NCBI GenBank assembly: GCA_001769535.1
Contig: MEOH01000019.1
Location: 65,787 to 129,786 of the forward strand
Source of the DNA: Bacteroidetes bacterium GWF2_38_335
GTDB taxonomy: Bacteria > Bacteroidota > Bacteroidia > Bacteroidales > GWF2-38-335
DNA: 64,000 nt
Direction of reading: 5' to 3'
Part shown: positions 1 to 59,398 of the stretch, in pieces
Layout: every line of letters starts with the position of its first letter
Numbering within the stretch: position 1 is the first letter of the stretch
Translations under genes and position numbers: made by a program
The notes under the pieces: model-generated
What the model saw: the letters and a program-made list of their open reading frames with translations, nothing else
Database searches by the model: none
What the model was told of the DNA's origin: nothing

Positions 1-569
1 GTTGCAGCATTTTTTATGAAACAAATGAATATCAGGGTTTTCATAAAAACGGTAATATTAAATACCATGAAAAAGAAACTAAAACAATACACTATTTAAT
101 AACAGAACGATCTAAATACTATCAAAATGGACAAATGAGAGTTAAGTATAGGGATGGTAATTATATAGAAAAATGGAGGTTGTATGATTCAACTGGTGTT
201 TTGATACAGAAGGTTTTTAGAGTTGACAGAACTTCTGTTTTAAATTTTTTTCACCCAAGAATATTATATGAAGGAAGAGGAAATTTTACCATCGAGAAAA
301 CATATACTAATCATGGAAAATTATTTTTTTCAGTAAAAAGAAAATCTTGGCCCAGTATTTTTGATTTTGGTATTTCGAAGCTTAAATATATTGAAAATGA
401 TACGATTACAGGAAAATTGAAATACAAAATTCATTACAATCCCAAAAATGGTTTCATGAAGAAATATGACACCAACGGATTTGAATCAATTATTATTGAG
501 AGTCTTGATACATTGAAGATCATTGACAGTGTTTTGTATAATCGACTAATTAAAACCCATAACCCATAA
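1..569 (+). CDS. hypothetical protein, 5' end outside window (weak MORN/YwqK-like repeats)
   Basis: Frame 3 is open from nt 3 to TAA 567-569 with no stop upstream of the listed Met at 135, so the gene most likely enters from the left edge. Loosely repeated motifs (QGFHKNGNIKYHE, YYQNGQMRVKYRDGNYIEKWRLYD) resemble MORN/YwqK repeats, but only weakly. The stop codon lies inside a heptamer tract. Confidence 0.5.
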   Translation, partial: CSIFYETNEYQGFHKNGNIKYHEKETKTIHYLITERSKYYQNGQMRVKYRDGNYIEKWRLYDSTGVLIQKVFRVDRTSVLNFFHPRILYEGRGNFTIEKTYTNHGKLFFSVKRKSWPSIFDFGISKLKYIENDTITGKLKYKIHYNPKNGFMKKYDTNGFESIIIESLDTLKIIDSVLYNRLIKTHNP

Positions 570-584
570 CCCATAACCCATAAC
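555..584. repeat. heptanucleotide tract (ACCCATA)x4
   Basis: Read directly: acccataacccataacccataacccataac. It overlaps the last codons and stop of the upstream ORF. Same heptamer family as the tracts at 38252-38291, 38441-38508, 58944-59034 and 59181-59215. Confidence 0.9.
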
Positions 585-5236: not shown

Positions 5237-5315
5237 TAAACTATTAACAAATGCAGGTTAACAAACGCAAAAATTATTTTATAACCAATTCTTTTTATTT
5301 TCGTTTAAAGTTAGT

Positions 5316-7931: not shown

Positions 7932-7966
7932 AAACAATAAAACTAACTTAAACTGAACAGTTTATT

Positions 7967-26649: not shown

Positions 26650-26860
26650 ATGCTTTTACACCCGAAAGCTCTGAATATTTGCAATGGCAGGTCTTCTGAC
26701 TTTCCTGACCTTTAACCCCTTCCCATCCGCCGGGAGGCGAACAGTGGGTGATCGTTAAAGGCACCATCCGCCGTTTGGCGGATCAGGATCACAGCAGCGG
26801 GTACTGTAGCCGATTTGCACGGCATTCCCTTTTCAATCCGGACATTTATTTCCGGATAAC
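26650..26860 (-). promoter_or_regulatory. cobalamin (B12) riboswitch
   Basis: The minus strand reads AAAAGGGAATGCCGTGCAAATCGGCTACAGTACCCGCTGCTGTGA ... CACTGTTCGCC ... GGGAAGG ... then the B12 box AGTCAGAAGACCTGCC (plus-strand ggcaggtcttctgact at 26686-26701). This matches the conserved core of the cobalamin riboswitch. A possible terminator hairpin (aggaaaatt...aatttcct + TTTGGTTT) follows before the ATG at 26532. Confidence 0.85.
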
Positions 26861-26868
26861 CATCGTGA

Positions 26869-26876
26869 CAAATGTA
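26869..26876 (-). promoter_or_regulatory. candidate -7 box (TACATTTG) driving the riboswitch leader
   Basis: Reverse complement of caaatgta. Matches TAnnTTTG, placed just upstream of the riboswitch. Confidence 0.4.
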
Positions 26877-26977
26877 GGGGGATTTTTTTTAAAAAAAAGT
26901 GTTTGGGGTAATATTTTTGATTAGGGGATTGTTAATATTAATTTTAAAATATTTGATTTCAGTAATTTATAGTGTTA

Positions 26978-32178: not shown

Positions 32179-35100
32179 ATGAGGTGTATTTTATTTGTTT
32201 TTTTGTTAGGCGCATTTGTTGCCAAATCGCAATATGTTATTTATCCTGCTCACAATTACACCTCTAAAGATTACGGCAAGTACATCGAAGCAACTATTTG
32301 GTGCGCTGATCAAAACAAACAGGGAGTGATGTTTTTCGGTACAGCCAACTTTGTTCTGAAATTTGATGGGTCTACCTGGGAAAAGATAAAAATTAAAGAT
32401 AACACCTGGATTACCTCTATTGCAATTGATGAGAAAGGAATTCCATGGATCGGCGGCGAAAATGAATTTGGTTGTCTGATTCCTACATCCAATGGTTTTT
32501 TTAAATATCTTTCTCTTTCCGATAAAATCGATAAAAAGAAGACACCTGTAAATGTGGTATGGAAAATTCATATCATTGATGGAACTGTATATTTTCAATC
32601 AGAATCAGGGGTTTTTGTTTACAAAGACTCAAAACTTTCTACAATCCTTCCCAAAAAATCATTTCATCTGTCCTTTTTGGTTGACAAAAATCTATATGTA
32701 AGGGAAAGGGAAACCGGCTTGCTAAAGATAAACAACGGTAGAACCGAGCTCGTCGATAGGGACAGTATTTTTAAAGATCAGGGGATTTTTTCCATGTTAA
32801 GGGTAAATAGTAAATCAGTTTATATTTTTACCCAATTTGAGGGTATATGGAAAATGTCATTACCTGATTTTAAGTTTGAGAAAATTGTCAGTCCAAATAC
32901 CGAAATTCTTAATAATTATGCAATCAGCGGCGCTCGATTGCTCAGGGATGGCAATATTGCTGTTTTTACACTTGATAAAGGTGTCTTTATTATTGACCAG
33001 AATTTTAATATTATTGCAAACAGTAATAACAAAAACGGACTGTTGGTTAATGGCATCAAAGATGTTATTCAGGATTCATTTGATAACCTTTGGCTTGCCA
33101 CTGACAATGGGACTTGTCACCTTGAATATTCATCTCCTTTTTCGGATTACAATGATGCCGGAATTACAGGAAATGTAAATGATATTGTGAATTTTAAAGG
33201 CAGGTTTTTTGCTGCTACATCCGACGGTGTTTTTATTCAGAATGATATTAGAGATAATGATTTTTTTGTCAGGTTTTCAAGAATTGAAACCATTCATAAG
33301 AAAGCAAATTGTTTCATCCCGGTCGGCGATGAACTTCTTATCGGGTCTGATGAAGGATTGTACTCCTATGATGGGAATTTAAAACTGGTTATTGAACGGA
33401 TTAACTGCCAGTCGATTGCATATTCTCAAAAACTTAATAAACTATTTGTAGCCGGGGTTCACGGAATCAAAGCTTATGTGAAAAATGGAACTTGGGTTTT
33501 GTCAGATAACTTTTTGGAAGTTAAAGACATAATCACCAAAATTGTGGTTGATGAGAGTGATGAAAAAGTATATGTCTGGGCTGGAACAAAAAATGTAAAT
33601 GTTTATGTTCTGTCATTTCAAAATGGTTCAATCGAAAGAGTAGCCAAATACGACAATAACTTTTTTCTTCCCGAAAAAGGTTGGGCCGAACCATTTATTT
33701 CAGGTGATTCTGTCCTTGTTTGTACTCAATTTGGTTTGTATGCATCTGAATTTGTTGATGACCCTGAATTCCCTGACTTTTATTTTAACAAGGTTGAATC
33801 AATTAGTGGCAAGAAAATAAATAAAAGAATTAATAAAATTTCAGATACAAAGGAAAGATTGTACATATACATGGATGGCGATTTGGGATTTTTCGATAAA
33901 AGAAATAATCTGAAATATGTTTCCAAAACATTCTTAAATGTTGATGTCGGAAGGGTTAATGCCATATACCACGAAAACGATTCGGTGTCCTGGATCGGTG
34001 GAAATGATGGTATCAGGATTATTCGGTATAATGAGAAAATAGTAAAAAAATATAATTTCAAATATCCTACTCTCATCAGCAGAGTTGTGGTTAAAGGTGA
34101 TACCGATTACACTCTCTTTAATGGCATTTTCTATACTTTTGAGATCAATGGAGAGGATACTGTTTTCTCAATAGTGGATGCACAGCCAGAAATAATGAAA
34201 CCTGTGCTGAGTTACAATGAAAATAGTCTGACTTTTTATTTCAGCGCACCATTTTACGAAGGAAATGGAAAGATGCTTTATCAGTATAAGCTTGAAGGAC
34301 CTACAGAGGATTTATCTGATTGGAGCTACGACCGAAAAGCGCCATTCATAAATCTTTTTGAAGGTGATTATACTTTCACAGTAAAAGCAAAAAATGTTTA
34401 CGGTGTTGAAAGTGAAATATGTTCCTATTCATTTACCATTCTGCCTCCATGGTATCGTACCTGGTGGGCTTACACTATTTATGTGATTTCTCTTATCCTG
34501 CTGGTTATTGTTGTTATCAGAATTTACAGCTACCGTCTTAAACAGGAAAATATCAAACTCGAAAGAATCGTTAAAGAACGTACCTTCGAAATTGAACAAC
34601 AAAAGGAGGAAATTACTGCACAGCGTGATGAGATTGAAGATCAGCACAAGATTTTGTCTGTTCAGAAAGATGAACTTGAAGAAATTCACGGCGAACTTAC
34701 CGACAGCATAAATTATGCAAAACGCATACAAAATGCCATCCTTCCTTCCGAAGAAATTCTGAAAACCGGTTTTCCCGATTTCTTTATCGTATATAAACCC
34801 CGTGATGTGGTCAGTGGTGATTTTTACTGGGCTGTTCAGCTGGGTGACAAAACTATTGTGGTTGTTGCTGACTGCACCGGACATGGTGTTCCGGGCGCAT
34901 TCATGAGCATGCTGGGAACGGCATTTCTTAATGAAATTATTGCAAACGCAAATATTACTTCTCCTGCCGAAATCATGAACCGACTGAGAAATGAAGTGAT
35001 TAAAGCATTGAAGCAAAACAATATTGACCGCACGCAGATGAAGGACGGAATGGACATGGTAATGATTTGCTTTGACCGATCAACTATGACCGTTGAATTT

Positions 35101-35487
35101 GCCGGCGCCAACAATCCTTTGTATGTTTTCAATGCGCCCGGTCAGGAATCTGATGAATTCGGACTCATGGAAATTAAAGGTGATAAAATGCCTATTGCTA
35201 TTTATGATAAAATGGACTCCTTCGTGAACCACAGCATCAAAGTACAGCCAGGTACCTGCATTTACATGCAAACCGATGGATATGCCGACCAGTTTGGTGG
35301 CGAAGCAGGAAAAAAATATAAGTATAAACCGCTTAAACAAATGCTCAGCCAGATTCATGAAAAGCCCATGGATGAACAGAAAATCATCATTGAAAATGCA
35401 TATAATGAATGGGTCGGATTGGATGGAAAATCTAACAGGAAATATGCACAGGTTGATGATATAACCCTGGTGGGAATCAGGATTTGA
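32179..35487 (+). CDS. two-component-regulator propeller + Y_Y_Y sensor fused to SpoIIE/PP2C-type phosphatase
   Basis: Long periplasmic Reg_prop-type propeller region and a Y_Y_Y domain (YQYKLEGPTEDLSDWSY...GDYTFTVKAKNVYG). TM helix (AYTIYVISLILLVIVVI) and a heptad coiled coil (AQRDEIEDQHKILSVQKDELE). PP2C/SpoIIE motifs are present (VSGDFYW...VADCTGHGVPGAFMSMLG...DGMDM...TDGYADQFG...DDITLVGIRI). Confidence 0.85.
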   Translation: MRCILFVFLLGAFVAKSQYVIYPAHNYTSKDYGKYIEATIWCADQNKQGVMFFGTANFVLKFDGSTWEKIKIKDNTWITSIAIDEKGIPWIGGENEFGCLIPTSNGFFKYLSLSDKIDKKKTPVNVVWKIHIIDGTVYFQSESGVFVYKDSKLSTILPKKSFHLSFLVDKNLYVRERETGLLKINNGRTELVDRDSIFKDQGIFSMLRVNSKSVYIFTQFEGIWKMSLPDFKFEKIVSPNTEILNNYAISGARLLRDGNIAVFTLDKGVFIIDQNFNIIANSNNKNGLLVNGIKDVIQDSFDNLWLATDNGTCHLEYSSPFSDYNDAGITGNVNDIVNFKGRFFAATSDGVFIQNDIRDNDFFVRFSRIETIHKKANCFIPVGDELLIGSDEGLYSYDGNLKLVIERINCQSIAYSQKLNKLFVAGVHGIKAYVKNGTWVLSDNFLEVKDIITKIVVDESDEKVYVWAGTKNVNVYVLSFQNGSIERVAKYDNNFFLPEKGWAEPFISGDSVLVCTQFGLYASEFVDDPEFPDFYFNKVESISGKKINKRINKISDTKERLYIYMDGDLGFFDKRNNLKYVSKTFLNVDVGRVNAIYHENDSVSWIGGNDGIRIIRYNEKIVKKYNFKYPTLISRVVVKGDTDYTLFNGIFYTFEINGEDTVFSIVDAQPEIMKPVLSYNENSLTFYFSAPFYEGNGKMLYQYKLEGPTEDLSDWSYDRKAPFINLFEGDYTFTVKAKNVYGVESEICSYSFTILPPWYRTWWAYTIYVISLILLVIVVIRIYSYRLKQENIKLERIVKERTFEIEQQKEEITAQRDEIEDQHKILSVQKDELEEIHGELTDSINYAKRIQNAILPSEEILKTGFPDFFIVYKPRDVVSGDFYWAVQLGDKTIVVVADCTGHGVPGAFMSMLGTAFLNEIIANANITSPAEIMNRLRNEVIKALKQNNIDRTQMKDGMDMVMICFDRSTMTVEFAGANNPLYVFNAPGQESDEFGLMEIKGDKMPIAIYDKMDSFVNHSIKVQPGTCIYMQTDGYADQFGGEAGKKYKYKPLKQMLSQIHEKPMDEQKIIIENAYNEWVGLDGKSNRKYAQVDDITLVGIRI

Positions 35488-35530: not shown

Positions 35531-38116
35531 CTACCTTACAACAACCTCATCGCAAAACATCCAGCATTTATTTCCTTTGCCGTAATGCCATGGTGGACAG
35601 ATTTTTACTCCGGTTGCTTTTATTTTCACATATCTGGCTTCTGCTGAAATATTGCACTTGAAATCCTTTAGTTCAATAATTATTTCTTTGCCCGGATTTT
35701 TTGTAGAATAATTTTCTTCCCCTGATTTCTTGAAATTTTTACCATCGGTTGAGGTGAAAAATTCAACTTTTTCGGGATAAAAAATCCAGTCGTTCGGCGA
35801 ATTCAGAAACCCTGCAGATATTTCTTTAATCTGAGTGTTTTTTTGCAGATCAATAACTGCTTCCATATCTGTTCCTTCATAACCCTGCCAGCTTCCTGAT
35901 GAGTAGTTATAGTCGCCTCTGATGCCATCTGTAAGTGCGTTTTTCCCCGAAGCCGGATATTTTGAGTTGAAAGGGTAGGAGAGGGTTATGTCTTTTCCTG
36001 TGGCCTGGTGACTGACTTTCATATCTCCATATGTTTTCTGCATTTTGTAAATGACCATTTTATTTTTTATACCCGAATTGTAATCTTTCAATGAATTCAT
36101 TTTTATTGAAACTTTGTTTTCCAAAGGTTCAATAATCATGGCATGTCCGCCAGCTTTTGCACAGGCAGCATAAATGGTGTCTTTTGAAGTTGTTTCAAGA
36201 TGAATTTCTTCAAAAATTTCCGGGTTTGTTTGCCAGTCTGTTTGCTCCGAATCCCCGAAAATGGTAACATGATAACTTTTGCCCTTTTCAAGAAATGAAA
36301 GCGGAATCTTTACCAGATGACAGTTTTCATCCGAAACGGTGCCTACAAACCATCTGTTACCTTTGCGCCGGGCAATGGTCACAAAATCGCCTAATTTTGC
36401 ATCAATTACCTTTGTCTCGTCCCAAACCGGAGGCAATTCTTCAACGAATTTCATGGCCGGATGTCCTTCGTAATTTTCAATCATATCGGCTGCCATCATA
36501 ACCGGACTGTAAAACACGACAAACAGCGCCAGTTCGTGCGAGAAAGTGCAGTACAACCGCTTGTTTTTTTCGGGTGAATGGTTGATTTTGAAAATGCCCG
36601 GAGTATAGTCATACGGTCCGGCTAAAAAGCGGGTAAATGGCAAAATGGTGGAATGATAAGGCGGAGTGGCTTTATAGGTGCCATTCCATTCATTGCCCCG
36701 TGCTGCTTCCTGTGATAACAGATTTGGCCATGTGCGATCCAATCCGGTGGGTTTGATGCTTTCGTGCGGATTTATGGCAACGTGATATTTTGCTGCAGTT
36801 TCAACTACTTTCTGAAAATGCCTTACCATGTATTGCCCGTGGTGGTGCTGGCCGGTGGGGATAATTGGTCCGGCATAACCCGTTTTCAGTGAAATGATTC
36901 CCAGTTTTTGGCATAAGGCCATAGCGCTGTCAAGCTGTTTTTCATACTCCGGAATGTTTCCTCCCGTTTCATGATGAGAGATAAACTCAACACCTTTTTC
37001 TTTTCCATATTTCACAACTTCCTTAAGATCGAAATCGGGGTAAGGCGTACAAAAATCCTGAACGGGTTTTACTCCGGATGCCCATGTTTCCCAGCCAAGG
37101 TTCCATCCTTCTGCCAAAAAACCCTCAATTTTATGTTTTGCTGCAAAATCAATATATTTTTTTGCTCTTTCGGTTGTTGCGCCGTGGTTCGGACCGGCAT
37201 ACCAAGTGTATTTTCCCAGATGCATTCCCCACCAGATTCCCACAAATTTCATGGGTTTGATCCATGAAACATCTTTTATTTTGCAGGGTTCGTTGAGGTT
37301 GCGAACCAGATTTGATTCAATCAATCCGCCCGCCCGCTCCGAAATCAAAATACACCTCCAGGGTGTTTTAAAGGGCGCTTTCACCCGTGAACAAACTCCG
37401 TCGGGCCATGGCCACAATGAGGAAACAAAAGCATTTATACGGGTAGAATCTTTTCTTAAAACCATTTCAGAATAATCAAGCAATGCGGCTTCATGAATAC
37501 TCAGAAACATTCCGTTTGAGGTTTCAATGGTCATGGGCGTATTGGCATCTGAAATTTCGTTAAGTGCATTGTGTCTGTAAAGAGATTCATAGGCAAATTC
37601 GTCACTGGGAATCCACCAGGCGCTGTCCCCCTTATTGAGTTCAAACTTTGTTTTTTCAGCAGTAATCAGGATGCTGTCTTTCCAAGATTCCTCAGGAAAA
37701 CCGTACCTGAAACCAATTCCGTCATCATAAACTCTGACGATGAAATCAATGCTTCGACCATTTTCAATGTTTTCCTTTAAAGTAATTACAGCTTCCTTAT
37801 AATGGTTTCTAATGGTTGAAAAAGTTCCGCAAACCGGAGTCCATTTTTCATCAACGGAAGATTCTTTGATTTCAGAAATATTCAAATCGGTTTCAAAAGG
37901 TTTTTGACCTCTGAATTCAAAGGAAAACCCTGATTTTTTCACAAGTTCTTTCTCTCCATAAAAAACCTGATAAAAAGGTTTGCCATTTTCAATGGAGATA
38001 GTGAATTTTATGTTCCCGTCGGGAGAGGAAACAGTTTTGGAATTTATTGCACCATCATTATTCGTGCTGCAGGATGCAATGATAATTAGTGTAAAAAAAA
38101 ACAGTAAATATTTCAT
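35531..38116 (-). CDS. glycoside hydrolase family 97 (SusB-like alpha-glucosidase/galactosidase) lipoprotein with C-terminal F5/8 type C (discoidin) domain
   Basis: GH97-type motifs (FVGIWWGMHLGKYTW, HGATTERAKKYIDFAAKHKIEGFLAEGWNLGWE, ISHHETGG). C-terminal discoidin-like region (ALTDGIRGDYNYSSGSWQGYEG...ARYVKIKA). Start taken at ATG 38116 (MKYLLFFFTLIIIASC lipobox). The longer ORF start at 38236 would read through heptamer repeats. Confidence 0.8.
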   Translation of the reverse strand: MKYLLFFFTLIIIASCSTNNDGAINSKTVSSPDGNIKFTISIENGKPFYQVFYGEKELVKKSGFSFEFRGQKPFETDLNISEIKESSVDEKWTPVCGTFSTIRNHYKEAVITLKENIENGRSIDFIVRVYDDGIGFRYGFPEESWKDSILITAEKTKFELNKGDSAWWIPSDEFAYESLYRHNALNEISDANTPMTIETSNGMFLSIHEAALLDYSEMVLRKDSTRINAFVSSLWPWPDGVCSRVKAPFKTPWRCILISERAGGLIESNLVRNLNEPCKIKDVSWIKPMKFVGIWWGMHLGKYTWYAGPNHGATTERAKKYIDFAAKHKIEGFLAEGWNLGWETWASGVKPVQDFCTPYPDFDLKEVVKYGKEKGVEFISHHETGGNIPEYEKQLDSAMALCQKLGIISLKTGYAGPIIPTGQHHHGQYMVRHFQKVVETAAKYHVAINPHESIKPTGLDRTWPNLLSQEAARGNEWNGTYKATPPYHSTILPFTRFLAGPYDYTPGIFKINHSPEKNKRLYCTFSHELALFVVFYSPVMMAADMIENYEGHPAMKFVEELPPVWDETKVIDAKLGDFVTIARRKGNRWFVGTVSDENCHLVKIPLSFLEKGKSYHVTIFGDSEQTDWQTNPEIFEEIHLETTSKDTIYAACAKAGGHAMIIEPLENKVSIKMNSLKDYNSGIKNKMVIYKMQKTYGDMKVSHQATGKDITLSYPFNSKYPASGKNALTDGIRGDYNYSSGSWQGYEGTDMEAVIDLQKNTQIKEISAGFLNSPNDWIFYPEKVEFFTSTDGKNFKKSGEENYSTKNPGKEIIIELKDFKCNISAEARYVKIKATGVKICPPWHYGKGNKCWMFCDEVVVR

Positions 38117-38165
38117 TTGTTTTTTGTTTTGGTAAAGATATAAAAAAAGTGGAAAATGGTGGTGA

Positions 38166-38508
38166 GGTTGATGGGTTGATAGGTTGATAGGTGGAAGGGT
38201 GGTATGAGGTATGAGGTATGATGTATCATGTATCATGTATGAGGTATTTTCAACCCATAACCCATAACCTATAACTCATAACCCATAACCTCCCATCCAT
38301 TTCCGCCGGAATAGTATTTTTTGGTTCTAATAAGTAAACGGCCGGCGGTTTTGTTCATATTTTTTATTACCCCGGCCGTTAGCCGGGGCTGAATTTAGCT
38401 GGCCTTTCAGGCCGTTAGTTCATCAGGATTTAAGAACATTAACCCATCACTTATAACCCATCACTCATAACCCATAACTCATAACCTATAACTCATAACT
38501 CATAACCT
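38166..38508. repeat. composite structured repeat, copy A: heptamer arrays flanking a ~150-nt three-hairpin core
   Basis: The element runs in this order. First, GGTTGAT-type units (38166-38189), GGTATGA/CATGTAT units (38200-38246) and ATAACCC-type units (38252-38291). Then the core, with hairpins ccgccgg...ccggcgg (38303-38348), ccccggc-cgtta-gccgggg (38370-38388) and ggcct-ttc-aggcc (38401-38413). Last, ATAACCC/ATAACTC units (38441-38508). It is the inverted counterpart of 58939-59256. Confidence 0.85.
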
Positions 38509-41500
38509 ACTCAATCAAAACAAAAGCCGCCCAAAAATAGGGATCATATTTTTTTCGCATTTCATTTTGAGTTTCATTAAATGATTTGCGTATGTCTTTT
38601 GATTTCAGAAGTTTTGTATAAAAAGTTGTCATGAATTCTTCGGTTTCCTTGTCGGGTACCTGCCATAAACTCATGATAAGGAATTTTGCTCCGGTCATTT
38701 TAAAAGCACGCTGCAGTCCGTAAACACCTTCGCTGCCTTTGATATCTCCCAATCCTGTTTCGCAAGCAGAAAGTACTACCAGTTTTGTTTTCCCAAGATC
38801 CATATTTGAAACTTCCAGAGCGGTAAGAACACCGTCTTCACCCTCAATTTTCTCCTTGTTTGTAACATCGTTTGCTCTTGCAAGAGCCAGACCTGAGCGC
38901 ATGAGCGGATTATTGTTTTCGGTGAAATTGTAAATCAAACTTCTGGAATTACTGCCCCTGAATGCAACTTCTTCTCCGGTTGTTTCAATATTCAGGTCAT
39001 TTGAGGCGATGCCATCCTGAGCTAAAACTTCGGATGGCGAGGGGAAAAAGAAGCCATGTGTGGCGATGTGAATGATACCCGGAGCATTTTCACCACTCAT
39101 CGCTTTGATGTTTTCCTCACTGGCTTGCAAACCGGAAAATTCCGAAGACAAACATTTATTTGTGCTAAAAATTTTATTAATGTTATCGGCTTCATTTTTA
39201 GTTCCTTCAAGATATGTCCATGCTTCATTTTCAGTCTTTTCATTGGTGAACTGAGCTCCGCCGAAAATATTGATTTTCAAATCATCCTGTTTTAGCAGAT
39301 CAGACTTTTTATCAGCAATCAAAGCAGTAGAAGAAACCGAGTTTAGTTCAAATCTGTTTAATATACTGATTCCCTTTTGATCAGTGATGCCTGCAAATGA
39401 AACTTTATGAAGCAATCCTGATGGTGAATAAAATATTTTATTGATGCCATTCAAAGCAGAATCCATAGGATTCCATAATGTTTCATAAAGGGCAGTATTT
39501 CCGGATCTTTCGCTTCCGTAAACAGTGAAAATGTATTGCTGGTCATTTGGTGCAGTTTTTCCGATAATTTTTTCAAGCTCAGCAGCTTCAAATAAACTGA
39601 CGATTATGGGAAACTCACTGTCCTGTCTGATAATCATTGCAAAATAGTTATCAGAAAACTGATTGTTTTCAACCATTCCGTAATGCGAAAATTCAATGGA
39701 TGCTTCGCCAACACCAAGATTCTTCTTAATTTCCTGCCAGTCTGAACTGAAAATATCCATTTCATTTTGAATTTCCACCGATTTTTGAACAAGCTCTTTT
39801 TCAAGATTGTTAATGGATTCTTCAATTTCGGTAATGCTCTCGAAACGCGATGATTCGGGCAAAGAATAAAGTTTTGCGAGTTTTTGTTTTTCACCCACCC
39901 AATGATTATATTTTTCAATTAATACCGGGTCTTTGCTGCCCAAAATTTTCTCTTTCATTTTTCCGGTAGATTTCAGGAGAATTCCTTTGTTGATCATCTC
40001 TGAATTGTATGCATACACCGAGACCGAAGGATTTGTTTTTTTTGTTTTCATTGCAAACGAACAGTACAGATCATAGTAATGACTGACCGTTTTAAGAAAA
40101 TTGAATTTTTCCTGTTCTGTTAGAAAGGAGAAGTTTTCCCTGATAGCTTTATAGTTCAGATCGAGAGCTTTTTGATAGCATTTTTCGGCTTCAGCAAAAT
40201 TGCCTTTGCGCTCAAGAATATAAGCCAGACTTACCAAAACTTCGGAACATTCGGGATTATTTTCACCAAAAGATTTCTGATCAAGTTCAAGGGCTTTTTT
40301 GCAGTACATTTCAGCTTCATCATATTGAGCTTTTGCCGAATAAACCATGGAAATATTATGGTAAGCTACTGAAAGGTCTGGATAATTTTCGCCAAATATT
40401 TTCTTTTCCAAATCAATGGCTTTTAACAGATTGATTTCAGCTTTATCATATTGGCCTGTATTTCGGTAAAATTCCCCGAAATTGTTGAGATGGAGGGCAT
40501 AATCGGGATGATTTGTACCCAATATCACACTATCTATTTTAAGAGCACCATAAAGGTACTCTTCTGCTTTTGAGGCATATTGGTTTACCTTGTTGATGTC
40601 ATCCGAAAATAATGCTTTTGAAAGATATAATGATCCCAGATTGTTGAGCGTCGTTGAAATATTTAGGTTGTTTTCTCCGAAAAGCAATTTGTATTTTTCA
40701 TAGGCAGACAGATAATATTTTTCAGCTTTATCGTAATTACCTGTTTCATAGTAAAATGCACCTAAGCTTATTAATGATGAGGCGTAATTTGGATGATCGG
40801 TTCCCATGCTTTCCTTTAAGATATTTTCAGATTTCAACAAATATTCCTCGGCGACTTTATTATTGCCCTTTTTAAGCATTACATTGGCCAGATTGGTAAT
40901 AATACTAACATTATCAGGGTGGTCTTCACCATAAGATGCGATCTGTATTTTCAATGATTTTTCAAGTTCATCCTCTGCCTTTTCATATTCGCCCGATTCA
41001 AGAAAATAATTTCCATAGTTGTTTAGAAATACTGAAAATTGCGGATGCATATCACCATAAAGTTTTTCATAAATCAACCTGCATTTTTCATAGGTTATAC
41101 CTGCTAACTGATAGTTTCCCATATAGGAATACAAAGCAGCCAGATTGATAAGTGAAGTGGCATAATTTGCATGTTTTTCGCCCACAGTTGATTTATGAAT
41201 TTCGAGAGCTTTTAGCAACAAAGTTTCTGCCTCGGGATATTTGCCCAGGGCAATTTTTACCTGTGCCAGTCCGGAAAGCGCAGTAGCATAATCAGTATGT
41301 TTTTCGCCAAGAATCTGTTTTTGAAGTTCACAAACTTTTTCGTATTTCTGTTCCGCTTCAGTGTATCTGCCCAATTGTTCATATACTCCGGCAATATTGC
41401 TCAGTGTCCCTGCATAGGCATTGTATTTTTCGCCATAAAGTTTTTTCTGGTTTTCAGCGACTTGATTAAAAAGTTCCAGAGCTTTTTCATATTTGCCGTT

Positions 41501-42601
41501 GTTGGAATAGGTTAAGGCCAGACTGTTAAGTGCAATATTGTAATTTGGATTATCTGGACCGTAAACCTTCGAATAAATATCAACAGCTTCTTTTAGCAAT
41601 GCTTCTGATTCGCTTTTTTTACCCATGTTATCATAAAGAACAGACAGATTGAAAATGCTTAATGCATAAAAATCGGATTCTTTTTTGAATACTTTCTCCT
41701 TGATTTTAATGCACTGAAGATACAGTTTCTCGGCTTCCTCGTTTTTGCCCTGTTTTTCGCAGGCAACAGCCACATTGTTTAAAGCAGTCGCATGATCGGC
41801 AGTGTTTTTTCCGAAAAATTCAATGGATAGATCAAGAGATTTTTTAAAGATGATTTCCATTTTATCGTACATTCCGGCGTATTGGTAGAATTCGCCCAGA
41901 CTGTTTAAAGTCAGGATATAATCGGAGGATAATTCGCCCGACATTTGTTTGACCTGCTCCGGAGCTTTCACATAAAATGGCTCAGCTTTTTCATAGTTTC
42001 CGGTCGACAGGTAAAATGGGGCGATGGTGTTGACCATCTGCATGTACAGTGTGTCGGTTTCCTTGTAATTTTCCTTAATAACACGAAAAACATCTTCATA
42101 AATTTCTTCGGCGATTTTATAACTTCCGGCAATATTGTAAATATTTGCCTGTTGAATACCCGTATTGATATAATCCATGCTGTTTTTAGTCTGGTCCTTT
42201 ATGATGAAGTTAATGACCTCCTCCATGAGCGGATACGCCTCAGAATATTTACCAATATAGGTGTAGTTGACGGCCAGATTAAAAATGATTTGTAAATAAT
42301 TGTAATCCTCTTTGCCATAAATTTTTTCAGCCAGAACAGAAGTGGTTTTAAAAGTTTCAACCGCTTTTTCATAATCCTCTATGGCATAGAAAGAAAACGC
42401 CTGATATCTCAGAACGAAAACTTTGACAGTATCATGAAGAACAGGTTCTTTTAACAATAAATCTGCAGTTTGGATAGCCGTCGAATAATCCTGTGCCTGA
42501 AATTCAGAAATGAATTTATCGTAGTTTTTCTGCCAGTCCTGCGAAAAACCCGAACCCGACAGTAATAGCAATGAAACAGTGAGTGTTAATATAGTTTTCA
42601 T
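38507..42601 (-). CDS. exported TPR-repeat CHAT-domain protein (caspase-fold protease)
   Basis: Signal peptide MKTILTLTVSLLLLSGSGFSQ. About 20 kinesin-light-chain-type TPRs (YATALNNVAVACEKQGKNEEAEKLY etc.). CHAT domain with His (IIHIATHGFFFPSP) and Cys (VVLSACETGLGD), and the tail KYDPYFWAAFVLIE. Confidence 0.9.
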   Translation of the reverse strand: MKTILTLTVSLLLLSGSGFSQDWQKNYDKFISEFQAQDYSTAIQTADLLLKEPVLHDTVKVFVLRYQAFSFYAIEDYEKAVETFKTTSVLAEKIYGKEDYNYLQIIFNLAVNYTYIGKYSEAYPLMEEVINFIIKDQTKNSMDYINTGIQQANIYNIAGSYKIAEEIYEDVFRVIKENYKETDTLYMQMVNTIAPFYLSTGNYEKAEPFYVKAPEQVKQMSGELSSDYILTLNSLGEFYQYAGMYDKMEIIFKKSLDLSIEFFGKNTADHATALNNVAVACEKQGKNEEAEKLYLQCIKIKEKVFKKESDFYALSIFNLSVLYDNMGKKSESEALLKEAVDIYSKVYGPDNPNYNIALNSLALTYSNNGKYEKALELFNQVAENQKKLYGEKYNAYAGTLSNIAGVYEQLGRYTEAEQKYEKVCELQKQILGEKHTDYATALSGLAQVKIALGKYPEAETLLLKALEIHKSTVGEKHANYATSLINLAALYSYMGNYQLAGITYEKCRLIYEKLYGDMHPQFSVFLNNYGNYFLESGEYEKAEDELEKSLKIQIASYGEDHPDNVSIITNLANVMLKKGNNKVAEEYLLKSENILKESMGTDHPNYASSLISLGAFYYETGNYDKAEKYYLSAYEKYKLLFGENNLNISTTLNNLGSLYLSKALFSDDINKVNQYASKAEEYLYGALKIDSVILGTNHPDYALHLNNFGEFYRNTGQYDKAEINLLKAIDLEKKIFGENYPDLSVAYHNISMVYSAKAQYDEAEMYCKKALELDQKSFGENNPECSEVLVSLAYILERKGNFAEAEKCYQKALDLNYKAIRENFSFLTEQEKFNFLKTVSHYYDLYCSFAMKTKKTNPSVSVYAYNSEMINKGILLKSTGKMKEKILGSKDPVLIEKYNHWVGEKQKLAKLYSLPESSRFESITEIEESINNLEKELVQKSVEIQNEMDIFSSDWQEIKKNLGVGEASIEFSHYGMVENNQFSDNYFAMIIRQDSEFPIIVSLFEAAELEKIIGKTAPNDQQYIFTVYGSERSGNTALYETLWNPMDSALNGINKIFYSPSGLLHKVSFAGITDQKGISILNRFELNSVSSTALIADKKSDLLKQDDLKINIFGGAQFTNEKTENEAWTYLEGTKNEADNINKIFSTNKCLSSEFSGLQASEENIKAMSGENAPGIIHIATHGFFFPSPSEVLAQDGIASNDLNIETTGEEVAFRGSNSRSLIYNFTENNNPLMRSGLALARANDVTNKEKIEGEDGVLTALEVSNMDLGKTKLVVLSACETGLGDIKGSEGVYGLQRAFKMTGAKFLIMSLWQVPDKETEEFMTTFYTKLLKSKDIRKSFNETQNEMRKKYDPYFWAAFVLIE

Positions 42602-42690: not shown

Positions 42691-42880
42691 GGAGGACGCA
42701 AAATCCGACCTCCAATTAAAAAAACTGCTTTAAACACTTTTAAATTAACAGAATTAACCTGCCCTTTCAGGGCGCCGAAAATTGCCAATCTATAAACCTG
42801 AGGCGTTCCGCGTGTCGCCGTAGCTTTAGCGGAGGCACTGCCATCGGGCTGAATTAATCTGCCCTTACAGGGCGGAAAAA
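42691..42880. repeat. cluster of short hairpin modules related to the copy A/B core
   Basis: Hairpins ggagg-acgcaaaatccga-cctcc (42691-42713), gccct-ttc-agggc (42761-42773) and gccct-tac-agggc (42861-42873). The last is preceded by gggctgaatta, as in the A/B core (ggggctgaattta-gctggcctttcaggcc). Confidence 0.5.
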
Positions 42881-45270: not shown

Positions 45271-48200
45271 ATGAAACGTATTATTTTCTTATTTTTTCTT
45301 TCTTTTTTCGTTTGGGTTTCATACTCCCAAAACCCCGTTCTGGTTCCCCAGGAGGGATTTCTTGGAACTGTTACCAATATTGCTTACAGTCAGGATGGCC
45401 GATATCTGGCCTCTTGTGGTAAAGGCGATCCTGCCATTAAAATTTGGGAGGTTGCAACGAATAAAATGTGTGGGAAACTTGAAGGACATACCGATCTTGT
45501 TACCGCGCTCTGTTTTAGTCCCGACGGCAAATTCCTCGCCAGCGGCAGCAAAGACAATCTGGTGATTCTCTGGGATCTGACAAAATGGGAATTGTCAAAA
45601 AAATATTCAGGTCACTTAAAAGAAATTACGGCTGTTTGCTTTTCGGGTGATGGCAATTTTGTTGTGAGCGCAAGCAATGATAAAACAGTCAAAGTATGGA
45701 ATATAAGTGAAGTTAAGGAAAAATTCACCCTGACGGAGCATAAAAATGATGTCACCGTGGTTGCTGTGAGCTCAGATAATAAATATCTTGTCAGTGGATC
45801 TGATGACAACAGTCTGATAGTTTGGGATTTCCAATCAGGAACCCTGCTTAAAAAAATCAAAGCTCAGAAAAAAAGAATTACCTCACTGGCCTTTTTACCC
45901 AATAACACGGCATTTCTTTCATCTTCGATGGATAAAACCATAAAACTTTGGGATGTGGTTTCGGGTACAGCCGTCAAAGAATATGCTGCAGCTTCAGGAA
46001 TTGTAAATATGTCAGTTGAAAGCAGCGGAAAAAGCTTTTTTACTGTTGATAAAGAAAATGTTATTCAAGTCTGGGATGTTGGTCTGGGATCTGTTATTGC
46101 AACAATCAATAAAAAGGAGGATGAAAAGGCAAAGGATGATGAGGAACCTATAAAAGCACTGGCTTGCAATCCGAATGGTTTATATTTTGCTACAGCCGGT
46201 TACAGTAAAAATATTTTTGGAAAAATAAGTTCAGACGAAAATGCAATCAAAATATGGGATGTAAAATCAAACACATTATTTAAAACTATTAATGGTGAAG
46301 TGTTTCCTGTGCATAATTTGTGCTTTAGTCCCGCAGGAAACATTCTGGCTTCTATGACCAAAAACCGGCTTTTTGTTTGGGATGTGGTAAATGCCGAGTA
46401 TATTGCCGGAATTGAATTTGCTGAACCGCAGGAAAAGAAGTCGGGCGGACTGTTATCCAAAACTGCCGATGCGCTGGAAGGTGTCAAATATACCTACAGA
46501 ATAGAATTTACACAGAATGGTGAATACCTTGTTGTAAAATCGCCCGATGATAATACCGGTTTGAAGGTGTATCATTTTTCAGACAATCAGCTTAAGCTCA
46601 ATAATGTTATTATGTGCAACAATCTGGGTTATAAGCCTGCAAATGCCACATCGCTCTATAATCCACTGTCAAAACGCAAGGATTATCCTGTTCATGATTT
46701 TGCACTCTTTCCGGATAGTAATTACGTGGCCGTTGGAACCACCGGTGATACAGCCGTAGTCATTTTTAACCTGCTCAATGGTAGTATTTTTAAGATGCTC
46801 GAAACACCCACCGAAAAAAATATCAAAAGTCAATCTTCAACAACCGGTCAGTTTAATAAAGATAAAGTTATTGCAATTACTTTCAGTCCTGACGGCAAAT
46901 ACCTTGCAGGTGCCTTTGAAAGCGGACCAATTTATGTTTGGGAAACAGAGTCGTGGAATCTGCTTTTTGTTCAGCTGGACAACATACTTTCAAGTGGTTT
47001 AAGCAATACCACTTATATTGGAAATGCTTTCTTTGAATTCAGTAAGGATGGAAAAACACTGTATTACGGAAGACGGGAAGATGTTTGGGTTTTTAGTTAT
47101 GCTGATTCAGGACCCTGGCCCTTTAAAAAGATCAAAGGAGGTTCAGATATAACTACATTATTGAGTACCGAAAAAACACTTGCCGGAAAGCTTGACCGGT
47201 CTGTTTGTTTGTACGAAAATGAATCATCAAAAATAATGGGCAGCCATGATGCGAAGGTCACAGCCCTTGCTTTTGACCAGAAATCGGGATTGCTTGCCAG
47301 TGCCGGTGATGACGGTAAAATTAAAGTATGGGATCCCGTTACCGGCAAAGAAGTTTTCAGTGTCCTCAACAGCCAGTCGGGTGATTACGTGTTTGTCACT
47401 CCCGATCATTATTACAAAGCATCCAAAAAAGGTCTTGACCTGGTAACCTATCGGGTGGGAAAAGAAATTTATCCATTTGAGCAATTTGATTTGCAGTACA
47501 ACCGACCGGGAATTATTCTGGAAAGAGCAAAAAATCCCGATTTGGATAAAATTACTGCTTATCATTCGGCGTATGCCAAAAGGTTAAAAAAGCTCAAGAT
47601 GGATGAAAAAATGTTTGGTTCTGATATGCAGATTCCCCAGTTATCAATCCTTAACAGAAATGAAATACCTTACACCTGGACTGCCGACACGCTCAAAGTA
47701 AAAGTAAAATGCGCTGATGCAAAATATCAGCTTGAACGGTTGAATATATTCATAAATAATGTTCCCATTTATGGAGTGGGCGGGTTGTCTTTGAAAGAAA
47801 GCAAGTCGCAGACCGATGAAAGAGCAATACAAATTCCAATGGCCGCCGGAAAAAACATCATCCGTTTTTCATGTCATAACCAGAAAGGCGCCGAGTCATT
47901 GATGGAAACAATTGAATTGACCTACGAACCAAAAGAAAAAAAGAAGCCCGATTTGTATATTGTGACAATAGGAGCATCTGTATATTCCGACAAAAGATTT
48001 AACCTCACCTATGCCTCAAAGGATGCCAAAGATATGGCCGAATTGTTTAAAACCAGCCCGGTTTATGGCAATGTTTTCACCAAAACCCTTACAGATAATG
48101 AAGTCACAAAAGTCAACATACAAAAGGTCAAAGCTTTTCTTGAAAAAGCAGGAAGAGATGATGTGGTGATTCTGTTTATTGCAGGCCATGGATTATTAGA

Positions 48201-48869: not shown

Positions 48870-49055
48870 TAATGGAAACTTGTTTTCATTTCCGCCGCAA
48901 AAAGCATCACATTTCTGAATATCTTTTTGGGCGGCGGTTTTTTCTATTCATACTCTTTGTAGTAATTGAGTTTTCATAAACAAAAACGCCACCCTGAAAT
49001 AATTTAGAACCAAAAAAGCAATTGCGGCGGAAATGAAAAGTAGTTTCAATGTAAT
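48870..49055. repeat. third, diverged copy (C) of the structured repeat, arranged as an inverted pair
   Basis: Arms gtaatggaaacttgttttcatttccgccgcaa (48870-48900) and ttgcggcggaaatgaaaagtagtttcaatgtaat (49021-49055) are an imperfect inverted repeat. The right half shares the blocks TAAACAAAA, TTAGAACCAAAAAA and GCGGCGGAAATG with copy B (59113-59175). Confidence 0.7.
48892..48943 (+). terminator. terminator-like hairpin inside repeat C
   Basis: ccgccgcaaaaag ... ctttttgggcggcgg followed by TTTTTT. About 125 nt downstream of the WD40-caspase stop. Confidence 0.4.
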
Positions 49056-50105: not shown

Positions 50106-50165
50106 TTCCATTCCGAAAGAATTCCCGCATTATTATTCTTTTATGGTGCCAGATAATTATTCCGA

Positions 50166-50682: not shown

Positions 50683-50739
50683 AATTAGTAAGTAGCTATT
50701 GAATCTTACAACCTTCTTTTGAACATTCAAAAAAAAACC

Positions 50740-50747: not shown

Positions 50748-50767
50748 AATAGAAAAATTAATTGGAA

Positions 50768-56086: not shown

Positions 56087-56121
56087 GTATGTTCTCCGGA
56101 TTTATCTAATAAAATTTTAGT

Positions 56122-58938: not shown

Positions 58939-59256
58939 GGGGTGGGTTATGGGTTATAGGTTATAAGTTATAGGTTATAAGTTATAAGTTATAAGTTATA
59001 AGTTATAAGTTATAAGTTATAAGTGATGGGTTAATGTTCTAAAATTCTGTTGAACTAACGGCCTGAAAGGCCAGCTAAATTCAGCCCCGGCTAACGGCCG
59101 GGGTAAAAAAAATGTAAACAAAACCGCCGGCCGTTTACTTATTAGAACCAAAAAATACTATTCCGGCGGAAATGGATGAGAGGTTATGGGTTATAGGTTA
59201 TAAGTTATGGGTTATCTCGAGTTGAAAAATACATCATACATCATACCTCATACAAC
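58939..59256. repeat. composite structured repeat, copy B (inverted partner of 38166-38508)
   Basis: 13 heptamer units lie at 58944-59034, including seven consecutive perfect AAGTTAT units. The core follows, with hairpins ggcct-gaa-aggcc (59060-59072), ccccggc-taacg-gccgggg and ccgccgg...ccggcgg. Then come 5 GGGTTAT-type units (59181-59215) and CATCATA/CCTCATA units (59231-59254). Confidence 0.85.
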
Positions 59257-59398
59257 CAATCCATGCTGTTCCAAGTTTACTCCCTTCGGTCATGAGAGAA
59301 GTTGCAACTAGGAACACATCTCGCTTAACAAGTTTGCAACTCGGAACCTATCCCTTTCTACAATACTCCATCCACCTCCACACTTAAAAACATTTTCC

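What the first reader, a model, noticed from the sequence alone, without database searches (positions are those of the whole stretch)
38166..38508. Non-coding element downstream of two CHAT genes is better conserved than the genes themselves (inverted pair 20 kb apart)
The ~340 nt after the stop of CHAT gene 38507-42601 and the ~320 nt after the stop of CHAT gene 56122-58938 (58939-59256) are reverse complements of each other. Each sits in the same orientation relative to its gene. I aligned the cores by hand: 38283-38459 against the reverse complement of 59013-59188. That gave 7 substitutions and 1 indel in about 176 nt. The last ~57 coding nt of the two genes differ at 11 positions. The core holds three hairpins: ggcct/aggcc, ccccggc/gccgggg, and ccgccgg...ccggcgg with a ~32-nt loop. 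Either the element spread recently (MITE-like) into equivalent positions, or it is a selected 3' UTR or DNA structure. As long inverted repeats, the pair could also mediate inversion of the whole 20-kb caspase island.
Basis: seen in the sequence. Interest (0 to 1): 0.65.

Follow-up and report, generated by a model that had tools for sequence, protein, structure and literature searches.

The report
Dispersed hairpin repeat flanked by heptamer arrays
The conserved ~150-nt sequence after two CHAT genes is real, but it is two young copies of a hairpin repeat present in dozens of copies across this groundwater Bacteroidota genome, not a CHAT-specific regulatory element or a demonstrated inversion switch.

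Summary
The 154-nt cores (38293-38446 and the reverse complement of 59027-59179) are 95.5% identical. The last 300 coding nt of the two CHAT genes are 75% identical, and their four-fold degenerate sites are saturated (31-33% identical). The cores are therefore far younger than the gene duplication.

The core is not CHAT-specific. Contig depth in the source genome bin (GCA_001769705.1) puts hairpin P1 at about 9-36 times single-copy depth. The P2-linker-P3 module is at 16-60 times and the flanking heptamer arrays at 30-57 times. Another locus of the same species (L001/L002) has three tandem units between two divergent genes with no CHAT gene beside them. The window itself holds further diverged modules at 42.7-42.9 kb and 48.9-49.0 kb. 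The third CHAT paralog and three CHAT homologues from other organisms lack the element.

Compensatory changes preserve hairpins P1 and P3. No Rfam family reaches its threshold, no canonical promoter or terminator was found, and there is no usable RNA support.

All 24 public contigs read carry one orientation of the 20-kb segment.

Verdict: a lineage-specific, modular repeat of the REP/BIME or MITE kind, embedded in variable heptamer microsatellites. Low to moderate interest.

The parts
38165..38192 (+). 8-nt tandem array (AGGTTGAT x3.5) at or just outside the distal edge of copy A. It is partly complementary to the AACCCAT arrays.
   Evidence: TRF; inverted matches I8-I10
38201..38247 (+). Heptamer array (GGTATGA x6.7), distal part of the copied unit A. 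It is shared with copy B (59229-59254).
38252..38292 (+). Heptamer array (AACCCAT x5.6) immediately 5' of core A.
38293..38446 (+). Core of copy A, 154 nt. The forward orientation is the + strand, antisense to both flanking genes.
   Evidence: 95.5% identical to copy B; nhmmer E = 2.7e-46
38304..38348 (+). Hairpin P1: CCGCCGG, a 31-nt loop containing TTTTTTGGTTCTAA, then CCGGCGG, followed by TTTTGTT.
   Evidence: helix 97.6% paired in 6 copies with one compensatory G-C to C-G pair
38370..38388 (+). Hairpin P2: CCCCGGC-CGTTA-GCCGGGG.
   Evidence: variants CCCCGGCT-TGAA-AGCCGGGG in L001
38389..38414 (+). Conserved linker CTGAATTTAGC plus hairpin P3 (TGGCC-TTTCA-GGCCG). With the 3' half of P2 this is the most abundant module (M).
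   Evidence: depth 16-33x single copy; P3 covariation 0/500 shuffles
38440..38506 (+). Heptamer array (AACCCAT/AACTCAT x9.7) running up to the stop codon of CHAT-A (38507-38509).
58939..59033 (-). Heptamer array of copy B (AACTTAT/AACCTAT, read on the - strand), starting right after the CHAT-B stop codon.
59027..59179 (-). Core of copy B, 153 nt. P1 is 59124-59168, P2 is 59085-59103, linker plus P3 is 59059-59084.
59181..59268 (-). Distal arrays of copy B (AACCCAT-type at 59181-59215, GTATGAT-type at 59229-59254). Homology with copy A ends near 59268.
42746..42775 (+). Diverged M module (CAGAATTAACC-TGCCC-TTTCA-GGGCG) in the divergent intergenic region upstream of CHAT-A.
   Evidence: nhmmer E = 2.4e-6; sequence
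42836..42874 (+). Second diverged M module (CTGAATTAATC-TGCCC-TTACA-GGGCG). Its P3 carries a compensatory G-C to C-G change.
   Evidence: nhmmer E = 3.3e-8
48883..48946 (+). P1-like hairpin (CATTTCCGCCGC...GGCGGCGGTTTTTT) downstream of the WD40 gene.
   Evidence: nhmmer E = 0.0095 (weak on its own; the conserved leader and stem support it)
48968..49039 (-). Second P1-like hairpin, convergent with the previous one. Its loop shares TTTTTTGGTTCTAA with P1 of copies A and B.
   Evidence: nhmmer E = 3e-5
554..584 (+). A further AACCCAT array (x4.4) starting inside the last codons of ORF 135-569. It is followed by a different 80-nt hairpin-bearing tandem repeat (584-754).

Best explanation
The two sequences are young copies of a lineage-specific, non-coding, modular repeat family in an uncultivated groundwater Bacteroidota (assembly GCA_001769705.1). 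A full unit is about 150 nt. It starts with a conserved CATYCATTTCC leader. Then come hairpin P1 (7 bp with a ~30-nt loop), an A/T-rich linker, hairpin P2, the conserved linker CTGAATTTAGC, hairpin P3, and a tail ending GGATTTAAG..TTAA. Units and sub-modules (P1 alone, or P2-linker-P3 alone) occur in roughly 10 to 60 copies per genome. They are found singly, in tandem, or as inverted pairs, and are almost always embedded in short tandem arrays of 7-9 nt whose sequence and length change quickly. Shown here: the multi-copy status, the modular shuffling, occurrence beside unrelated genes in both orientations, the young age of copies A and B relative to the CHAT paralogs, and maintenance of the P1 and P3 stems by compensatory changes. 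Inferred: copies A and B arose by a recent copy event. This could be non-autonomous transposition acting on the hairpins, as for REP/REPIN or IS200/IS605-derived elements. It could equally be ectopic gene conversion or template switching that used the flanking heptamer arrays as homology. The event was favoured by the 20-kb proximity of the two sites. Selection against disrupting the coding sequence explains why the arrays stop exactly at the stop codons. Any function is likely generic to the family (a DNA or RNA hairpin that binds a protein or stabilises or insulates transcripts), not specific to CHAT genes.
For: Core 95.5% identical, against 75% for the last 300 coding nt and 31-33% identity at four-fold sites. 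Genes distal to the two copies are unrelated and homology stops at about 38188/59268. Depth in the genome bin X5 (single copy about 225): P1 9-14x, module 38380-38415 25-33x, and heptamers 30-57x in X3. With the L001 units as reference, P1 is about 36x and P2-M about 60x, and many 'skip' joints show that modules are combined differently in other copies. At least four further near-full-length cores at about 80-93% identity sit on separate contigs. L001/L002 belong to the same species, since their flanking genes are 98-100% identical to X5 contigs. They carry three tandem units between two divergent genes with no CHAT gene beside them; these units are separated by other short tandem repeats. Extra diverged modules occur in the window at 42746-42874 and 48883-49039. 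Compensatory changes occur in P1 and in P3 (3 pairs, 0/500 shuffles). Tandem arrays vary between strains of the same species.
Against: No terminal inverted repeats, no target-site duplication and no empty site were found, so transposition is not demonstrated. No candidate mobilising gene is known; the only IS nearby has unrelated ends. Two of a handful of close full-length copies sit at the same position and orientation after paralogous CHAT genes. This is unlikely under uniform random insertion, so some targeting, proximity bias or local conversion must be assumed. Conserved linker and loop sequences with compensated stems could equally mean a selected RNA. Copy numbers come from assembler k-mer depths of short contigs, not from a finished genome.
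Confidence: 0.7

Rival explanations
1. The family is a set of structured RNAs, either cis-acting 3'/5' UTR hairpins or small RNAs. The P2-linker-P3 module would bind a protein, and the heptamer arrays would act as multivalent binding platforms. Conservation would then reflect selection on RNA function across many loci. This is not exclusive with mobility.
For: The forward strand folds with z = -2.98 against -0.72 for the reverse strand. There are compensatory pairs in P1 and P3, plus G-U pairs valid only on the forward strand. The linker CTGAATTTAGC and loop TTWCA are conserved across diverged copies. There is a weak resemblance to the Acido-Lenti-1 motif (22.6 bits, E = 0.005 for the 461-nt search). 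Heptamer repeats have been proposed as sites for post-transcriptional regulators (PMC4679880).
Against: The Rfam match is below the gathering score of 37, and no other family matches. No sigma-70-type promoter or canonical terminator was found, although that scan does not cover Bacteroidota-type promoters. Orientation relative to flanking genes differs between loci. One P2 variant has a mismatch that is a wobble pair only on the opposite strand. The only metatranscriptome with any hit shows one 119-nt contig at depth 2 over a core, and otherwise only heptamers. Hairpins in DNA repeats such as REPs also show compensated stems.
Confidence: 0.2
2. The element was already downstream of the ancestral CHAT gene. 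It has been kept similar at these two loci by local gene conversion between the inverted copies (concerted evolution) while the coding regions diverged.
For: Position and orientation relative to the stop codon are the same in both copies. The copies are only 20 kb apart. A and B are each other's closest relatives at 95.5%.
Against: A third copy elsewhere in the genome is about 93% identical over 88 nt, and several more are 80-85% identical, so the similarity is family-wide. The third CHAT paralog has no copy. CHAT homologues in other organisms have none. A conversion tract would have to stop exactly at the stop codon, because the adjacent 57 coding nt are only 79% identical.
Confidence: 0.1
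3. The two copies are the inverted-repeat boundaries of an invertible 20-kb segment, a switch that flips the CHAT/TPR/WD40 island.
For: About 150 nt of 95.5% identical inverted repeats flank the segment. This is enough for occasional RecA-dependent inversion.
Against: All 12 contigs read that carry CHAT-A were grouped with the GH97-neighbour arrangement. All 12 that carry CHAT-B were grouped with the sensor-kinase arrangement, apart from two short contigs that end beside the gene. These come from several samples and assemblers. No recombinase domain was found in the eight large genes of 32-62.5 kb that were scanned. Inversion would not change any gene-promoter junction in an obvious way. The family is dispersed, so inverted pairs arise by chance.
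Confidence: 0.03
4. The core is a cis-regulatory 3' UTR element specific to CHAT genes, acting for example as a terminator, stabiliser or translational coupling signal.
For: Both copies start at the stop codon of a CHAT gene, in the same orientation.
Against: On the sense strand of the genes no hairpin is followed by a T-run, and no terminator-like site is found. Most family members are not next to CHAT genes. One of the three local CHAT paralogs lacks it.
Confidence: 0.05

Closest known systems
REP / BIME / REPIN elements of Proteobacteria (repetitive extragenic palindromes, mobilised by RAYT transposases; PMC2817692, PMC3116915, PMC3733652)
   Same: Short GC-rich imperfect palindromes confined to intergenic DNA, often just after stop codons. 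Tens to hundreds of copies. Combined with linkers into mosaic clusters. Stems kept by compensatory change. An inverted P1 pair at 48.9 kb resembles a REPIN doublet.
   Different: No GTAG or CGTC tag at the hairpin foot. The tandem units in L001 are direct, not alternating. The unit is larger (three different hairpins, about 150 nt). It is always embedded in heptamer microsatellites. No RAYT gene has been identified. The phylum is different.
Bacterial MITEs and modular repeats (Correia/NEMIS, pneumococcal BOX and RUP, cyanobacterial Nezha); comparison from my own knowledge of these families
   Same: Non-coding elements of about 100-200 nt that fold into hairpins. Many copies, including young near-identical ones. 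Modular build, as in BOX (boxA-boxB(n)-boxC). Often found in 3' or 5' UTRs.
   Different: No terminal inverted repeats or target-site duplications are detectable. No parent IS was found. Sub-modules occur on their own at higher copy number than the whole unit.
Heptanucleotide direct repeats: cyanobacterial STRR (from my own knowledge) and the TAACTGA repeats of Beggiatoaceae, Cyanobacteria and some Bacteroidetes (MacGregor 2015, PMC4679880; long simple sequence repeats of Mrazek 2007 as cited there)
   Same: Tandem 7-nt repeats in intergenic regions, abutting start or stop codons. Sporadic lineage distribution. Array length varies between strains. Several heptamer types can share one intergenic region.
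   Different: The heptamers here are AACCCAT, GGTATGA, ACTTCCG and others, not TAACTGA. They flank a conserved hairpin core. That association is not described in the parts of the paper I read.
Acido-Lenti-1 RNA motif (Rfam RF01687; Weinberg 2010, PMC2864571)
   Same: Two hairpins joined by a ~12-nt linker with a similar consensus (CUaAUUUAgC). The second hairpin is short with a U-rich loop.
   Different: The score of 22.6 bits is below the gathering score of 37. The motif is known from Acidobacteria and Lentisphaerae, not Bacteroidota. Here it is one module of a multi-copy repeat. The resemblance may be chance.

Membership tests
MITE | Small, non-coding, multi-copy, with near-identical young copies | tested here: met
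   Depth 9-60x single copy; copies A and B 95.5% identical; only short chance ORFs
MITE | Terminal inverted repeats | tested here: not met
   Only imperfect complementarity between the outer heptamer arrays of copy A (19 nt, 84%). Nothing conserved at the unit ends in both copies.
MITE | Target-site duplication, or an empty site in a relative | tested here: inconclusive
   The flanks are tandem arrays, so duplications cannot be read. No empty site was recovered.
MITE | Parent IS sharing the ends | tested here: not met
   The one IS near the window (DDE_Tnp_1, L030 5893-7461) has unrelated ends. The rest of the genome could not be searched.
REP/BIME | GC-rich imperfect palindromes, intergenic, high copy, clustered in mosaics | tested here: met
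   P1, P2 and P3; copy numbers; three-unit cluster in L001
REP/BIME | GTAG or CGTC tag at one end of the palindrome (PMC3733652) | tested here: not met
   By inspection of P1, P2 and P3 in all copies: the hairpin feet read TTTCC/GGTTT, TTACC/GGCTG and GCTGG/CCGTT.
REP/BIME | Cognate RAYT (Y1 HUH transposase) in the genome | not testable with these tools
   Only about 84 kb of the 5.5-Mb genome could be read. No Y1_Tnp domain was seen in the genes scanned.
REP/BIME | Alternating orientation of successive palindromes | tested here: not met
   The L001 units are all direct. Only the P1 pair at 48883-49039 is inverted.
Heptamer short tandem repeats (STRR / LSSR type) | Head-to-tail 7-nt repeats in intergenic DNA at many loci of the genome | tested here: met
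   TRF arrays; 18 matches against 0.7 expected in the window; depth 30-57x; further arrays in L032
Acido-Lenti-1 RNA (RF01687) | Covariance-model score at or above the Rfam gathering score (37 bits) | tested here: not met
   22.6 bits at 38370-38414. Not reported for the L001 units.
Intrinsic transcription terminator | Stable hairpin with a 3-8-nt loop followed directly by a T-run, on the sense strand of the upstream gene | tested here: not met
   0 terminator-like sites at either copy. P1 has a T-run but a 31-nt loop, and it lies antisense to the CHAT genes.
Invertible DNA segment | Both orientations present in the population | tested here: not met
   All 12 + 12 contigs read were grouped with the window's arrangement and no inverted arrangement was reported. 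Raw reads were unavailable, so rare inversion is untested.
CHAT-specific 3' UTR element | Present after paralogous or homologous CHAT genes and absent elsewhere | tested here: not met
   Absent after CHAT 53180-56086 and after homologues in L024-L026. Present at non-CHAT loci.

The most novel reading that the evidence does not exclude
The hairpin core and its heptamer arrays form one functional system not yet described. One version: the core nucleates or is copied through the arrays by a dedicated mechanism, with the arrays acting as homing or recombination substrates. Another version: the arrays act as multivalent binding platforms for a protein that recognises the CTGAATTTAGC-P3 module. Either would give a lineage-wide post-transcriptional or chromosomal-organisation signal, related in spirit to the unexplained heptamer repeats of Beggiatoaceae, Cyanobacteria and Bacteroidetes.
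Probability: 0.1. Interest if true: 0.6.

Novelty: new member of a known kind. Interest (0 to 1): 0.3.

Why it matters
The result keeps a striking local pattern ('non-coding DNA better conserved than the genes') from being read as a CHAT-specific regulatory RNA or an inversion switch. The pattern is what a young dispersed repeat looks like next to old paralogs. The family itself is a modest addition. It is a modular hairpin repeat, so far seen only in one groundwater Bacteroidota species and low-coverage freshwater relatives, and it is consistently embedded in fast-evolving heptamer arrays. That association could help explain why heptamer repeats appear sporadically in Bacteroidota, Cyanobacteria and Beggiatoaceae. 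The arrays are also usable strain markers. Such repeats matter practically too, because they break metagenome assemblies and provide substrates for rearrangement.

Tried and rejected
1. Exact 23-mer of the module against GTDB representative genomes: 0 hits.
2. Gapped P1 pattern against the same collection: 18 hits, all in unrelated GC-rich taxa. I judged these to be chance matches; they gave at best weak, partial nhmmer matches (best L012, E = 2e-4, over the seeded P1 stretch only).
3. The same 23-mer against JGI metagenomes: only L001 and L002, which proved to be another locus of the same species.
4. Degenerate module pattern against viral contigs: 0 hits.
5. Protein search with a spurious ORF that runs through the core, hoping gene callers had translated other copies: nothing.
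6. Rfam at gathering and at permissive thresholds: only a sub-threshold Acido-Lenti-1 match and noise (isrJ, MIR8643, HIV_GSL3).
7. RNA evidence: two small SOLiD metatranscriptomes from the same site were empty. A sediment metatranscriptome matched mainly heptamers.
8. Chimeric A/B cores as a trace of inversion: not assessable, because Logan contigs collapse the A/B variants into one path.
9. Nearby IS as parent element: ends unrelated.
10. Diversity-generating retroelement or integron-site readings were considered from the position at gene 3' ends. I dropped them: the differences between the paralogs are ordinary synonymous changes, and no reverse transcriptase or integrase was among the genes scanned.

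Full report
**Observation**

The two regions were read on both strands and aligned by machine. Downstream of CHAT-A (38507-42601, minus strand) and CHAT-B (56122-58938, plus strand) lie reverse-complementary sequences, each in the same orientation relative to its gene.

- The 154-nt core (38293-38446 against the reverse complement of 59027-59179) has 147 identities, 6 substitutions and 1 indel, which is 95.5%.
- A 44-nt piece of the core occurs exactly twice in the window, with none expected by chance.
- The last 57 coding nt of the two genes are 79% identical (12 differences) and the last 300 are 75% identical.
- The proteins are 38% identical overall.
- At four-fold degenerate codon positions of identical residues, only 31-33% of sites agree. 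That is saturation.

The contrast is even larger than stated: the genes are old paralogs and the cores are young.

**Anatomy**

The core holds three hairpins:
- P1: CCGCCGG / CCGGCGG with a 31-nt loop, followed by TTTTGTT.
- P2: CCCCGGC-CGTTA-GCCGGGG.
- P3: TGGCC-TTTCA-GGCCG, reached after the linker CTGAATTTAGC.

The strand written here (plus for copy A) folds better than shuffled sequence (z = -2.98). Its complement does not (z = -0.72).

The core sits inside tandem arrays of 7-nt units. In copy A the order is GGTATGA x6.7, AACCCAT x5.6, the core, then AACCCAT/AACTCAT x9.7, which runs into the stop codon. Copy B has the same layout with different array lengths and unit variants (AACTTAT x10). 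Array identity between the copies is only 61-71%.

Homology stops at about 38188 / 59268, beyond which identity is 49%. The next genes are unrelated: a GH97 glycosidase with a lipoprotein signal (35531-38116) and a Reg_prop/Y_Y_Y sensor kinase (59418-62531). A third AACCCAT array lies at 554-584, beginning inside the last codons of an unrelated ORF. It is followed by a different 80-nt hairpin-bearing tandem repeat.

**Origin and copy number**

The window comes from a Rifle groundwater metagenome-assembled genome (GCA_001769705.1, contig MEPF01000034.1). Its CHAT homologues, GldM-domain genes and promoter-like sequences point to Bacteroidota.

I laid the contigs of public runs on copy A. The flanking genes sit at single-copy depth (about 237 in X3, 225 in the genome-bin run X5, 15 in X1). 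Results at 90% or greater similarity:
- heptamer arrays reach 30-57 times single-copy depth;
- the stretch 38365-38415 reaches 16-22 times;
- the P1 region reaches about 4 times.

At 80% similarity in X5, P1 is 9-14x, the module 38380-38415 is 25-33x and the tail is 3-8x. At least four other near-full-length cores (80-93% identical) lie on separate contigs.

A metagenome scan with the exact 23-mer GCCGGGGCTGAATTTAGCTGGCC returned two contigs, L001 and L002. Their flanking genes are 98-100% identical to contigs of X5. They are therefore another locus of the same species, not a second organism.

That locus has an 850-nt intergenic region between two divergent genes with no CHAT gene beside them. 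It contains three tandem, direct units of the family. One unit carries an extra P2-linker-P3 module and a hairpin inserted in the P3 loop. The units are separated by other short tandem repeats, ACTTCCG heptamers and a 16-mer. With these units as reference, P1 reaches about 36x and P2-linker-P3 about 60x. Many 'skip' joints show that other copies combine the modules differently.

**Further copies and absences**

A profile built from four units finds more diverged pieces in the window:
- a convergent pair of P1-like hairpins at 48883-49039, after a WD40 gene, with loops that share TTTTTTGGTTCTAA with P1 of copies A and B;
- two P2-less linker-P3 modules at 42746-42775 and 42836-42874, in the divergent region upstream of CHAT-A.

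No copy follows the third CHAT paralog (53180-56086), which is 35 nt from CHAT-B. None was found after CHAT homologues (54-65% identical CHAT domains) in three other organisms. Twenty further kilobases flanking the window hold no unit. They do hold another composite of short arrays and a hairpin, whose 9-mer array differs in copy number between two assemblies of the species. The 80-nt repeat at 584-754 varies in the same way.

Outside this species the family was not found in GTDB representative genomes or in viral contigs. Low-depth fragments at 87-99% identity appear in other groundwater, river and freshwater metagenomes.

**Structure conservation**

- Across six P1 copies, 97.6% of cells pair. 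The closing pair switches G-C to C-G in two copies, and one copy has a G-U.
- Across seven P3 copies, three of six pairs show changes on both sides. The covariation score is 0.349 against 0.106 in shuffles, and none of 500 shuffles reaches it.
- The linker CTGAATTNANC and the loop TTWCA stay conserved.

The hairpins therefore matter to the element, either for its propagation or for a function. This does not tell DNA from RNA.

Rfam gives no match at gathering thresholds apart from an unrelated cobalamin riboswitch. At permissive thresholds the P2-linker-P3 module resembles Acido-Lenti-1 (22.6 bits, below the gathering score of 37). No sigma-70-type promoter excess and no terminator-like site is present at either copy; that scan does not cover Bacteroidota-type promoters.

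Orientation relative to neighbouring genes is antisense at copies A and B, and sense relative to the downstream gene in L001 and at 42.8 kb. RNA data are essentially silent. Two small metatranscriptomes from the site have nothing. A sediment metatranscriptome has one 119-nt contig at depth 2 over a core, and otherwise only heptamer arrays.

**Inversion**

All 12 public contigs read that carry the exact CHAT-A protein were grouped with the arrangement that places it next to GH97. All 12 that carry CHAT-B were grouped with the sensor-kinase arrangement, apart from two short contigs that end beside the gene. These come from several samples and assemblers. Logan contigs collapse the A/B variants of the core, and no raw reads were available. 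Rare inversion is therefore untested, but nothing supports it.

**Interpretation**

The best-supported reading is a lineage-specific, non-autonomous, modular repeat of the REP/BIME or MITE kind. Copies A and B are recent products of one copy event.

It is not a classical MITE: it has no terminal inverted repeats, no readable target duplication, and the nearby IS has unrelated ends. It is not a classical REP either: it lacks the GTAG/CGTC tag, its tandem units are direct, and no RAYT gene is known.

How it is copied is inferred, not shown. Two routes are plausible:
- hairpin-directed single-strand transposition;
- gene conversion or template switching that uses the ubiquitous heptamer arrays as flanking homology.

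Two close copies behind paralogous genes, in the same orientation and 20 kb apart, would be unlikely under uniform random insertion. Proximity-biased copying between pre-existing arrays is the simplest account. A residual CHAT link cannot be excluded until all genomic copies are mapped.

The association of hairpin modules with fast-evolving heptamer arrays recalls cyanobacterial STRR and the TAACTGA repeats of Beggiatoaceae, Cyanobacteria and Bacteroidetes (PMC4679880). It is the one aspect that may be worth a specialist's attention.

Noticed in passing
window 26669-26879 (-): Cobalamin riboswitch (RF00174, 88.3 bits, E = 1.9e-20) upstream of a minus-strand operon (ORFs 25270-26532, 24280-25266 and onward).
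   Followed up: no
window 584-754: An 80-nt unit repeated 2.1 times in tandem (97% identical). Each unit has a CCCCTCC-AA-GGAGGGG hairpin and is preceded by CATCCATCATCATAAC. Another assembly of the same species (L033) is about 87 nt shorter here, so the copy number varies between strains. A similar CCCTTCCC...GGGAAGGG hairpin follows a CHAT homologue in an unrelated contig (L024 955-990).
   Followed up: partly
window 50165-50200, 50273-50339, 50447-50513, 50650-50690: The 650-nt intergenic region upstream of the TPR-SpoIIE gene (50762-53167) holds two copies of a 67-nt repeat (AGCAAGGGCAAAGCCCTGGGATTGTAAGCGCG..., 81% identical). It also holds two copies of a CAGGTCAGTTGCAATGKTTATTTTT motif. 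This looks like another repeat or regulatory family, unrelated to the core.
   Followed up: no
window 48883-49039: Two convergent P1-like hairpins, each followed by a T-run, between the WD40 gene and the next gene. They look like a REPIN-style doublet or a bidirectional terminator built from the same family.
   Followed up: partly
L030 5260-5373 and 7580-7693 (about 2-4.5 kb beyond the right end of the window): An IS with a DDE_Tnp_1/DUF772 transposase (5893-7461) and 22-nt inverted ends (5863-5884 / 7556-7577). It is flanked on both sides by copies of a ~114-nt palindromic element (GCGGCTACCAAAAGGCAGGGTTTT...). This suggests insertion into, or duplication of, yet another hairpin repeat.
   Followed up: partly
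L032 2450-2690 (same genome, about 6.5 kb left of the window): Another composite of short arrays and a hairpin: GAAGTCC/GAAGTCG heptamers, AACAAAA repeats, a hairpin, then an AAAAGAACC 9-mer array. The two assemblies differ here by about 9 nt and a substitution (L032 vs L033). The ACTTCCG-type heptamer is also abundant in an unrelated sediment metatranscriptome (X23).
   Followed up: partly
window 2261-9580: Three consecutive paralogous genes. All three have PD40 repeats, and the first two also have an OmpA domain. They share internal 63-103-nt repeats (families D2 and D5).
   Followed up: no
window 32179-35487 and 50762-53167; 45271-48765; 53180-58938: The 30-kb neighbourhood is a signalling island: two SpoIIE (PP2C) phosphatases (one Y_Y_Y-linked, one TPR-linked, sharing an 86% identical 76-nt stretch), a 1164-aa WD40 protein, three TPR-CHAT proteins and a Reg_prop/Y_Y_Y histidine kinase. 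A CHAT homologue in another organism (L025) is also followed by genes with SpoIIE and Y_Y_Y domains.
   Followed up: no
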